Source: Candidatus Hodarchaeota archaeon (GTDB lineage Archaea > Asgardarchaeota > Lokiarchaeia > Sigyniarchaeales > SOKP01). Taken from it: a stretch of DNA of 64,000 bases. Shown piece after piece: positions 18,592 through 42,637 of this stretch; the first letter of the stretch is position 1; each line of letters begins with the position of its first letter. Under the pieces are notes generated by a model. That model was not told the DNA's origin and searched no databases. It was given only the letters and a program-made list of their open reading frames with translations. Location of the stretch: the NCBI GenBank assembly GCA_048886685.1, contig JBHLKM010000016.1:32001-96000 (forward strand). Reading direction: 5' to 3'. Made by a program: the position numbers and the translations under genes.

Positions 18592-19801
18592 CTATTTTTG
18601 CTTTGAAAGGTATCTAATTTTTACGAGTAAATCTCGAAGTTCCATTTTATCATTGTCAGATGTTATGTATTTCTTTTTTACTCCTTCTGAAAGCGGGATT
18701 GTTTCAATTTTATTTCCTTGGAGAGATACCATATTCCCAAATTTACCTTCTAAAACAAGTTTCATTGCTGCTAATCCAAACCTTAATCCTAAAATCCTAT
18801 CAAATGAATTAGGTGGTCCGGCACGCATGGTGTGACCAAGAACTACACTTCGACATTCGAAATCTACTCCATTTTTCTCAAATTCTTGTTTTAAATCGTC
18901 TCTTAAGTTTAATTCTTCAACAATTATTTGGGACATATTCAATTTTACTAATAATGGATTACCAAATGTATCCTTAGGTAATTTATCAATTGTTTCTTTA
19001 GATATGGTTTTAAAATCTCGGTTAAGAGATTCTAAATTCGGATAGGCTCCCTCTGATGTAGCAATTATATGATATTTATAGCCAGCATTAACTCTTTTTT
19101 TCAAAACATCAATAACATCTTTTTCTAAGTCAAATGGCGTTTCTGGGATTAATATTATATCTGCTCCAGCAGATATTCCGCTATACATTGTTAAAAAACC
19201 TGCATCTCTGCCCATTACTTCTACAACAAATACTCTTTGATGCGATCGAGCCGTGGTTGTAAGATTATCCATCGCGTTAGAGGCTAGTTGTGTCGAACTC
19301 CAGAAGCCAAACGTATAATGTGTTCCCTGCAGGTCATTATCAATAGTTTTTGGCACTCCTACTACTTTAGCATCAGCGAATCTATACAAATTATCAGCCA
19401 CTCCAAGAGTATCGTGTTCAGTTTAAAACAGAAGTTATTCTAAAACTCCACCGATAGCAATTAGAGCATCTATTCCTAATTCTTCAAACTTTTTGGTTAA
19501 TTCTTTAGCTTTTTCCTCTTTTGCACTTACTCCCTTAAATGGATTCGTCCTACTTGTATATAGGATAGTCCCCCCCACAGTATGTAGGTCATCATGTTCT
19601 GCTATATTAAGTGGAATTGTTTGGTTTTCCACAAATCCTTTCCATCCCTTAAGGATGCCAACACATTCAATCCCAGTATCATAAGCTTTAAGCATGATTC
19701 CATAAAGTACGGAATTTAAACCGGGACAGTGTACGACAGTTAAGGAAACCTTTAGACATGGCTCCGCCGCCCGTGAGAATTCCAACTTTTTTAATTGCTA
19801 T
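18592..19801 (-). CDS. pfp: PfkA-family phosphofructokinase, predicted PPi-dependent. Three exons (19762-19801, 19446-19730, 18592-19415) give 382 aa after removal of two BHB-type introns
   Basis: Joined exons (40+285+824=1149 nt) read (M)AIKKVGILTGGGDCPGLN...ALIAIGGDDTLGVA...PKTIDND...EVMGR...LGHTMRAG with no internal stop. SD GAAGGTGA lies 6 nt before an ATA start. Confidence 0.9.
19416..19445 (-). other. Putative mRNA intron 2 of pfk (30 nt, BHB-type, contains in-frame TAA)
   Basis: GGT GGA G^TTTTAGAATAACTTCTGTTTTAAACTGAAC^AC GAT. Exon stem UAUCG/CGAUA, bulges AG^U and AC^A, 9-bp intron stem. Confidence 0.85.
19731..19761 (-). other. Putative mRNA intron 1 of pfk (31 nt, BHB-type, frameshifting)
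   Basis: GGC GGA G^CCATGTCTAAAGGTTTCCTTAACTGTCGTAC^AC TGT. Central helix GCGG/UCGU, bulges AG^C and AC^A. Confidence 0.8.
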
Positions 19802-19807
19802 TTATAA

Positions 19808-19815
19808 TCACCTTC
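19808..19815 (-). promoter_or_regulatory. Shine-Dalgarno site of pfk
   Basis: GAAGGTGA, 6 nt upstream of the ATA at 19801. Confidence 0.7.
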
Positions 19816-41582: not shown

Positions 41583-41686
41583 GGGCTATTGGCGCAGGCA
41601 GGTAGCGCAGCAGGCTCTTAACCTGACGGTCGGGGGTTCGAATCACTCGTTTGGAAAAGACGAGTGCGAAATTCCCTCATAGCCCG
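41583..41686 (+). tRNA. tRNA-Lys(CTT) with a 30-nt non-canonical T-loop (59/60) BHB intron at 41643-41672
   Basis: GGGCTAT/ATAGCCC acceptor, anticodon loop CTCTTAA, GGGGG-TTCGAA^TCACTCGTTTGGAAAAGACGAGTGCGAAAT^T-CCCTC. Confidence 0.9.
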
Positions 41687-41803
41687 TTCTTTTTCTTTAT
41701 TAATAGTAGACATTCCATAAAATCCTCTGGGTCTAAAGATTTATTGTTTACTCCAATCTTAATTACATTAAACATAATTCCTTTCTTTTTAGTTGAAATT
41801 CAT

Positions 41804-42637
41804 TTGAATAAAGAAGAAGCTAATAATAATAGGTCAAAATTAAGGATACATCCAAATCTTAGAGAAAATTTCTTTTATATTATAGATTCAAAAGATAAGG
41901 CATATAGGCTAGGATTTTTATATGCAGATGGAGGAATAACTGTAGATAAACGAAATCTTGCTAGTTATAGGCTTAAAATTGAAATTAATAAGAAGGATGA
42001 ATATCTAATTGATAGATTTTGTAACACTATAGGTTTTGAAAAAAAATATAAATCATATAGAAAAGATTCCAATACAGTCAGAATTCGTATAGGGAATAAA
42101 AAGTTAATCAATGATCTAGTGTCAAAGGGAGTTTACTTAAAAAAATCAAAAATTATTGAATTACCAGATTTGAATACTAGAGCCTTTTATTTAGCCTTCC
42201 TTTTAGGTTATTTTGATGGTGATGGTAAACAAGTAACCTCAAAAATTACATCTGGAAGTAGAAAATTCTTAGAACAAATTAAAAATTTTTTTAATTTACA
42301 TACAAAAATTCATACAAAATCCGGTTATGGAAATGCATATGATTTGTATTTAGGGAGTAAACTATTCAATGAAATGATGGATAATTATCAGTTTAGCTTA
42401 CCAAGAAAGAGATTTAAGTTTCCTTCGAGAGAAGAAAGAATTAAGAAAATGAGAAAGAATGCATGGAAACATGGGAACAATAGAAAATTGGTAATTAAAA
42501 AAGAAAAACTCGAAAAATTAGTTTGGGAAATATCTATATCCAAAATTGCAGAATTATATGATGTATCAGATACAACAATCATAAATTACTGTAAAAGATG
42601 GAAGATTATTAAACCGCCTAGAGGATTTTGGATTTAA
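41804..42637 (+). CDS. Free-standing two-motif LAGLIDADG endonuclease-like protein with C-terminal HTH
   Basis: AYRLGFLYADGGI and AFLLGYFDGDG motifs, C-terminal SISKIAELYDVSDTTIINYCK. TTG 41804 preferred because the track start lies inside tRNA-Lys. Confidence 0.85.
   Translation: MNKEEANNNRSKLRIHPNLRENFFYIIDSKDKAYRLGFLYADGGITVDKRNLASYRLKIEINKKDEYLIDRFCNTIGFEKKYKSYRKDSNTVRIRIGNKKLINDLVSKGVYLKKSKIIELPDLNTRAFYLAFLLGYFDGDGKQVTSKITSGSRKFLEQIKNFFNLHTKIHTKSGYGNAYDLYLGSKLFNEMMDNYQFSLPRKRFKFPSREERIKKMRKNAWKHGNNRKLVIKKEKLEKLVWEISISKIAELYDVSDTTIINYCKRWKIIKPPRGFWI

What the first reader, a model, noticed from the sequence alone, without database searches (positions are those of the whole stretch)
19414..19769. 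Both pfk introns occupy the same 10-nt target, CGGYGGAG^AC, in phase 1 of an Asp codon
Seen in sequence: site 1 is CGGCGGAG^AC and site 2 is CGGTGGAG^AC. Both introns end in TAA(A)CTG...AC and are 30-31 nt long, the same size as the tRNA-Lys intron. Inference: this suggests either sequence-specific intron gain (reverse splicing, or homing by an endonuclease in trans) or duplication of one intron to a look-alike site. Insertion into essential motif codons is what parasitic introns and inteins favour, because imprecise loss destroys the gene. The GGDG motif of nadK here uses different codons (GGTGGGGAT) and is uninterrupted.
Basis: partly seen in the sequence, partly recalled or inferred. Interest (0 to 1): 0.72.

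Follow-up and report, generated by a model that had tools for sequence, protein, structure and literature searches.

The report
Two tRNA-type introns in Asgard phosphofructokinase
The phosphofructokinase gene of this Asgard archaeon carries two 30-31-base introns of the kind normally cut out of tRNAs; the look-alike sequence around them is real but is mostly forced by the Gly-Gly-Asp protein motif plus the RNA shape the splicing enzyme needs, and is not a DNA target shared with the organism's other mRNA introns.

Summary
Observation confirmed: this Promethearchaeota pfk has a 31-nt insert (19731-19761) and a 30-nt insert (19416-19445), both in phase 1 of the Asp of a GGD motif, at CGGCGGAG^AC and CGGTGGAG^AC. 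Both fold as bulge-helix-bulge (BHB) introns. They occur in 30 and 21 of 133 family genomes, and an exon base covaries with its intron partner. The shared-target reading fails its own test. None of 21 other BHB mRNA inserts (15 here, 6 in a relative) matches the 10-mer better than 6/10; six in-frame GGYGGAGAC sites here are empty; the two introns are unalike. Codon usage alone does not explain the match: the core is in 27/28 filled and 0/124 empty alleles. Six bases are fixed by Gly-Gly-Asp; the rest follow from BHB rules (bulge A, closing G-C pair). A model trained on the other introns ranks the two sites 1st and 5th-9th of 1,111 in pfk. That both landed in GG^D stays somewhat unlikely (roughly 0.1-0.4%), so ancient copying in cis is not excluded. 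Splicing is inferred; no RNA data. The scan noted Asgard BHB mRNA introns before on other DNA.

The parts
19808..19812 (-). Shine-Dalgarno-like GGTGA upstream of pfk
   Evidence: sequence; same arrangement in G026
19762..19801 (-). pfk exon 1 (probable ATA start at 19799-19801; ends ...LTGGG + first base of Asp)
   Evidence: an in-frame stop precedes the ATA
19762..19769 (-). 5' part of junction 1, CGGCGGAG: central-helix strand GCGG (19764-19767) and bulge AG
19731..19761 (-). intron 1, 31 nt, BHB with bulged inner stem; central-helix partner TCGT at 19733-19736
   Evidence: absent in 58 alleles, present in 15 of 81 family loci; 30 of 133 genomes; pair table
19446..19730 (-). pfk exon 2 (285 nt)
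   Evidence: dN/dS about 0.05-0.06
19446..19453 (-). 5' part of junction 2, CGGTGGAG: central-helix strand GTGG (19448-19451) and bulge AG
19416..19445 (-). intron 2, 30 nt, BHB with a straight inner stem of about 9 bp, two in-frame TAA; central-helix partner CTGA at 19418-19421 (3 of 4 pairs)
   Evidence: absent in 66 alleles, present in 13 of 81 loci; 21 of 133 genomes; fold
18592..19415 (-). pfk exon 3 (824 nt, starts with the last two bases of the Asp of GGDD)
   Evidence: Pfam PFK 9e-53; only full-length PF00365 locus in the genome

Best explanation
These are two independently acquired BHB introns in the pfk mRNA, cut out by the tRNA splicing endonuclease (EndA) and ligated by RtcB. The shared 10-mer is convergence, not a recognition sequence. 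Six bases are fixed by Gly-Gly-Asp. The A at -2 is the first bulge base, favoured in nearly all introns here. The C at +2 closes the exon helix with G at -7. The pyrimidine at -5 pairs with the intron's central-helix strand and differs between the two sites (C versus T). The C at -8 pairs with G+3 at site 2 and varies at site 1. GG^D in phase 1 is simply among the most BHB-compatible places in the gene. Once an intron is in, it locks the silent bases within about 12 nt, and it then moves in or out of alleles, together with those flanks, by homologous recombination between related species. Shown: anatomy, boundaries, distribution, covariation, purifying selection, lack of a shared target. Inferred: splicing, the enzymes, independent origin, recombination as the route. 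How each intron first arrived is not known.
For: No match above 6/10 in 21 other mRNA introns; A at exon -2 in 20/23 and at intron -2 in 23/23, although the boundary score used pairing only; central-helix strands about 60% GC in a 31% GC genome. Exon -5 and its intron partner change together: C:G in most site-1 alleles, T:A in G069, G071, G147; T:G, T:A and C:G at site 2. Silent-site identity among filled alleles is 0.82-1.0 just 5' of the junction and falls to background beyond about 14 nt at site 2. A model trained on the other 21 introns, using protein-level options only, ranks the sites 1 and 5-9 of 1,111. The introns are unalike. dN/dS is 0.05-0.06 in filled and empty alleles alike. Two EndA genes and RtcB are present. 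Filled alleles are scattered among empty sisters on the pfk tree. Junction mosaics exist: L212 has a filled-type 5' flank and an empty-type 3' flank at site 1, and L209 shows the reverse at site 2.
Against: Under my independent-insertion models both introns landing in GG^D is still uncommon: 1e-4 to 1e-3 to 4e-3, before allowing for post-hoc choice and several two-intron genes. No empty pfk allele has the full core (0/124, about 3.5 expected from marginal base frequencies; my arithmetic, alleles not independent). Four site-2 alleles have only two canonical pairs in the central helix (T:T at -5), and intron 1 does not fold better than its shuffles (z 0.75). The census is incomplete (about 1,970 ortholog pairs). 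The ranking model rests on 21 positives.
Confidence: 0.72

Rival explanations
1. One intron was copied in cis to the look-alike GG^D site of the same gene in an ancestor of the family (reverse splicing or ectopic conversion), and the copies have since diverged beyond recognition.
For: Same gene, same motif, same phase, both about 30 nt; low probability under independence; both introns are old enough to span 3-5 genera; they co-occur in 13 genomes against about 5 expected (counted).
Against: No similarity between the families: mean score 9.8-10.4, the same as against unrelated introns, whereas each family is 71-100% conserved within itself. The other two-intron gene here (thiolase) has unlike junctions. 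Co-occurrence is also expected from linkage at 285 nt. Copying was not a general route for Asgard tRNA introns (bioRxiv 10.64898/2026.10.13.758758).
Confidence: 0.15
2. Sequence-specific gain or homing: a trans-acting endonuclease, or a reverse-splicing step that reads the sequence, places introns at CGGYGGAG^AC.
For: Scattered distribution with near-identical introns in distant alleles (30/30 and 30/31 where third positions are 57-59% identical); no empty pfk allele with the full core; a free-standing LAGLIDADG gene lies in the window (41789-42637).
Against: Six empty in-frame GGYGGAGAC sites and two empty perfect 10-mers in this genome; other introns use other junctions; the two sites share nothing beyond -8/+2, while LAGLIDADG enzymes read 14-40 bp (my knowledge); homing needs empty alleles that carry the target, and none does; no long co-conversion tract; the introns encode nothing.
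Confidence: 0.07
3. The inserts are not spliced; the gene is a pseudogene or is rescued by recoding.
For: The start codon is ATA rather than ATG; no transcript evidence is in hand.
Against: dN/dS 0.05-0.06 in filled alleles; the only full-length PF00365 gene in the genome; the same inserts in 30 and 21 genomes with compensatory changes; a frameshift plus two stops inside two invariant motifs cannot be bypassed by simple read-through.
Confidence: 0.06

Closest known systems
cbf5 pre-mRNA intron of Desulfurococcales and Sulfolobales (Watanabe 2002; Yokobori 2009, PMC2738675)
   Same: [quoted passage not shown]
   Different: cbf5 splicing is shown experimentally and was the only coding-region example cited in PMC7714728. 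Here there are two introns in a glycolytic gene, in an Asgard genome with about 17 such inserts, and splicing is only inferred.
Archaeal tRNA BHB introns, including the Asgard census (bioRxiv 10.64898/2026.10.13.758758)
   Same: Same geometry and size (the 30-nt tRNA-Lys intron at 41643-41672); repeated presence at sites that allow a BHB; no families shared between loci.
   Different: Host is mRNA, so protein and RNA structure constrain the same bases. That preprint does not treat mRNA (0 occurrences of the word).
tRNA intron transposition in Thermoproteales (Fujishima 2010, as reviewed in PMC4033280)
   Same: Proposed gain of BHB introns at new sites by copying.
   Different: There, similar intron sequences recur in different genes. 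Here none of 23 mRNA introns has a second copy in another gene.
Homing introns and inteins with LAGLIDADG endonucleases
   Same: Insertion in conserved motif codons; scattered occurrence among relatives.
   Different: No encoded endonuclease, no extended shared target, no target in empty alleles, no long co-conversion tract.

Membership tests
Archaeal BHB (EndA-spliced) intron | 4-bp central helix between the last exon bases and the intron 3' end | tested here: met
   Intron 1 4/4 pairs in all 6 genus alleles; intron 2 3/4 (G:A mismatch) in all 5; relaxed to 2/4 in 4 family alleles
Archaeal BHB (EndA-spliced) intron | Two 3-nt bulges, cut after the second base, coinciding with the insert boundaries | tested here: met
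   Boundaries fixed by alignment to empty alleles fall exactly there
Archaeal BHB (EndA-spliced) intron | Flanking intron-side and exon-side helices | tested here: met
   Intron 2: 9-bp inner stem and 5-bp exon stem in 5/5; intron 1: bulged stems
Archaeal BHB (EndA-spliced) intron | Pairing conserved through base changes | tested here: met
   Exon -5 with intron partner C:G versus T:A; inner stem T:A versus C:G; alleles are not independent
Archaeal BHB (EndA-spliced) intron | Splicing endonuclease and ligase encoded | tested here: met
   Two PF01974 genes, one PF01139 gene
Archaeal BHB (EndA-spliced) intron | Removed from the RNA in vivo or by EndA in vitro | not testable with these tools
   No RNA holder was listed
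Target-specific mobile (homing) intron | Other insertions share the target sequence | tested here: not met
   21 other introns, best 6/10
Target-specific mobile (homing) intron | Empty alleles carry the intact target | tested here: not met
   0/58 and 0/66
Target-specific mobile (homing) intron | Co-conversion of flanking sequence over tens to hundreds of bases | tested here: inconclusive
   Confined to about 12 nt at site 2; mildly raised to -29 at site 1 (0.85 versus 0.62-0.68)
Target-specific mobile (homing) intron | An endonuclease that cuts the empty site | not testable with these tools
   LAGLIDADG-like matches exist in the genome; their targets are unknown
Transposed intron family (Thermoproteales type) | Similar intron sequences at different loci | tested here: not met
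   pfk pair rank 139/253; no copies elsewhere except a duplicated pfk fragment

The most novel reading that the evidence does not exclude
BHB mini-introns in Asgard mRNAs are gained by reverse splicing or copying into sites whose sequence already fits the incoming intron's central helix. The two pfk introns would be an old in-cis copy pair, and empty alleles with the full GGYGGAG^AC core would be missing because they get invaded.
Probability: 0.15. Interest if true: 0.8.

Novelty: new variant of a known kind. Interest (0 to 1): 0.48.

Why it matters
The headline claim, a DNA target for intron insertion, does not hold. What remains still matters. The papers I could search report BHB splicing inside an archaeal coding sequence only for cbf5, yet this Asgard genome has about 17 candidates, two of them in its only phosphofructokinase gene. 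The pfk data add a rule: such an intron rewrites and locks the silent bases of about 12 flanking exon positions, so shared junction sequences are a consequence of introns and cannot be read as insertion targets. This bears on how 'proto-splice sites' are interpreted, and it makes the gain question testable with a larger census. Practically, these genes are mis-called as broken in Asgard annotations, which affects metabolic reconstructions.

Tried and rejected
RNA search: no RNA holder listed; this is no evidence either way. Homology-free intron discovery by BHB scan plus coding potential was swamped by operon junctions and showed no length peak, so only homology-checked inserts and earlier-noted leads were used. 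A scan for introns shared by G000 and G005 was mostly noise and gave only RNase HII. A second copy of intron 2 in the genome looked like transposition but is a DNA duplicate of a pfk fragment. A 19-nt match of the uvrB intron inside the window lies in AT-rich sequence that reads as coding and is probably chance. The tRNA intron list from my BHB scan is rough: several calls are tRNA stems, not introns. The third-position column was mis-phased and was not used. No further introns were found in pfk neighbours across 80 loci. Literature searches found no paper on Asgard mRNA introns; most subscription papers are not covered. ATP versus PPi specificity was not settled.

Full report
What is there. 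The window comes from a Promethearchaeota (Loki-type Asgard) genome, judged by the record titles of its closest pfk relatives. The minus-strand pfk gene (18592-19801) is interrupted by a 31-nt insert (19731-19761) and a 30-nt insert (19416-19445). Alignment with 29 genus relatives fixes both boundaries without ambiguity. Removing them gives 382 aa with one terminal stop. It is the only full-length PF00365 gene in the genome, and an intact relative matches an Asgard-type solved phosphofructokinase (PDB 44xa/9cir, E 1e-145). The tRNA-Lys intron (30 nt, 41643-41672) and the uninterrupted nadK motif are also as described.

They are BHB introns. Each insert forms a bulge-helix-bulge with its exons, and the canonical cut sites coincide with the alignment boundaries. 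Intron 2 has a 9-bp inner stem, a 5-bp exon stem and 3 of 4 central pairs. Intron 1 has 4 of 4 central pairs and bulged outer stems; on energy alone it is not better than shuffles (z 0.75). Across the family, intron 1 is in 30 and intron 2 in 21 of 133 genomes (chance matches excluded by eye), and pfk genes of other families show neither signature. The exon base at -5 and its intron partner change together: C:G in most site-1 alleles, T:A in G069, G071 and G147; T:G, T:A or C:G at site 2, with T:T in four alleles. Filled alleles are under the same purifying selection as empty ones (dN/dS 0.05-0.06). Two EndA genes and RtcB are present. Splicing is therefore strongly implied but not shown; no RNA holder was listed.

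Test 1: do other mRNA introns share the target? I aligned about 1,970 genes to 2.8 Mb of a congener, G005. In-frame indels without stops mostly scored poorly as BHB, whereas frame-breaking inserts clustered at 28-37 nt and nearly all folded as BHB. With leads from earlier notes, checked here, the set is 17 in this genome and 6 private to G005. One of the 17 (LURP-like) rests on structure and frame only, and RNase HII is shared with G005. Their junctions are diverse: the best match of any of the 21 others to CGGYGGAG^AC is 6/10. What they share is structural: A at exon -2 (20/23), A at intron -2 (23/23), and central-helix strands of about 60% GC. For several of these introns the boundary was chosen as the best-pairing offset within 4 nt, but that score did not use base identity.

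Test 2: are matching sites filled? Six in-frame GGYGGAGAC sites in this genome and three in G005 are uninterrupted, one with the perfect 10-mer. A scan of all GGYGGAG sites found convincing inserts only in pfk and in a duplicated pfk fragment. Pattern scans over 36 and 52 genus genomes gave the same result for the ^ACGA and ^ACTG contexts. About 100 NAD-kinase-family matches have no stops inside.

Test 3: is it just codon usage? No. The core GGYGGAG^AC is in 14/15 and 13/13 filled alleles but 0/58 and 0/66 empty ones. The lock is short: silent-site identity among filled alleles is 0.82-1.0 just 5' of the junction and returns to background beyond about 14 nt at site 2, with a mild excess to -29 at site 1. 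That is the reach of the BHB arms. Base by base, G-7, G-6, G-4, G-3, G-1 and A+1 are fixed by Gly-Gly-Asp; A-2 is the bulge rule; C+2 pairs with G-7; Y-5 pairs with the intron and differs between sites; C-8 pairs with G+3 at site 2 and varies at site 1 (21/30).

Test 4: is one intron a copy of the other, or of a tRNA intron? The pair ranks 139 of 253 by global similarity. Family-against-family scores equal those against unrelated introns, while each family is 71-100% conserved within itself. No tRNA intron or other locus matches. The shared TAA(A)CTG is out of register: inner stem in intron 1, central helix in intron 2.

What is left. Why both in GG^D? A rough model trained on the other 21 introns, using only what the protein allows, ranks site 2 first and site 1 fifth to ninth of 1,111 positions, so these are prime sites. 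The chance that two independent introns take exactly these two is still about 0.1-0.4% in that model (1e-4 in a cruder one), before allowing for post-hoc choice. Also, no empty allele has the full core although about 3.5 would be expected from marginal frequencies (my arithmetic; alleles are related). I leave about 15% for an old in-cis copy and 7% for targeting.

How they move. Filled alleles sit next to empty sisters throughout the pfk tree (tree built from the part downstream of both introns). The nearest empty relative usually lacks the filled-type flanks, which argues against clean deletion as the main route. Mosaics with a switch right at the junction exist (L212 at site 1, L209 at site 2). 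Allele exchange by homologous recombination fits; its direction is not shown.

Comparison with what is known. The closest case is the cbf5 intron of Crenarchaeota, also in phase 1 of an Asp codon (PMC2738675) and cited as the only other such example in PMC7714728. A recent census of Asgard tRNA introns found repeated gains at BHB-compatible sites and no general copying route (bioRxiv 10.64898/2026.10.13.758758), which parallels this result; it does not treat mRNAs. Earlier notes of this scan describe the same kind of intron in other Asgard genomes; they were leads only.

Verdict. The inserts meet every testable feature of BHB introns. The shared-target interpretation fails; the match is largely a product of protein motif plus splice-structure constraint. 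New variant of a known kind; interest 0.48.

Noticed in passing
L177:1320-1550 (G000 C5 about 243970-244245): Orphan DNA duplicate of about 270 bp of pfk exon 2, intron 2 and a few codons of exon 3. Its intron equals that of G008 and differs from the window's copy at two structure-neutral positions.
   Followed up: partly
window 19799-19812 (-): pfk appears to start at ATA behind a GGTGA box; G026 has ATT or ATC at the same place and shares the upstream region (56/67) although the downstream gene parts are not sisters.
   Followed up: partly
window 41789-42637 (+): Free-standing double LAGLIDADG-like ORF directly after a tRNA cluster; target unknown.
   Followed up: partly
window 41643-41672 (+): 30-nt BHB intron in the T-loop of tRNA-Lys(CTT); ARAGORN misses this gene.
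   Followed up: partly
G005 C1 near 337488, 435337, 1129379, 1410049, 1505072, 2599625 (loci L047, L052, L087, L101, L106, L160): Six BHB inserts of 28-31 nt private to G005, in genes that look like a zinc-ribbon protein, mevalonate kinase, uL11, a CinA-like protein, a cis-prenyltransferase and an unnamed protein (names from motifs, my knowledge). uL11 has introns at different positions in G000 and G005.
   Followed up: partly
family matches (G069, G071, G091-G094, G144, G147): Divergent 30-32-nt variants of intron 1 at the same position; some share the loop of the common type, others may be separate gains.
   Followed up: no
L207, L214, L221, L247, L265: Empty site-2 alleles with the filled-type 5' flank but AT after the junction: scars of intron loss or junction recombinants.
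   Followed up: partly
G000 C1:320652-322529 and C15:64024-64281: LAGLIDADG-like domains inside long frames (1,771 and 1,190 aa), probably inteins.
   Followed up: no
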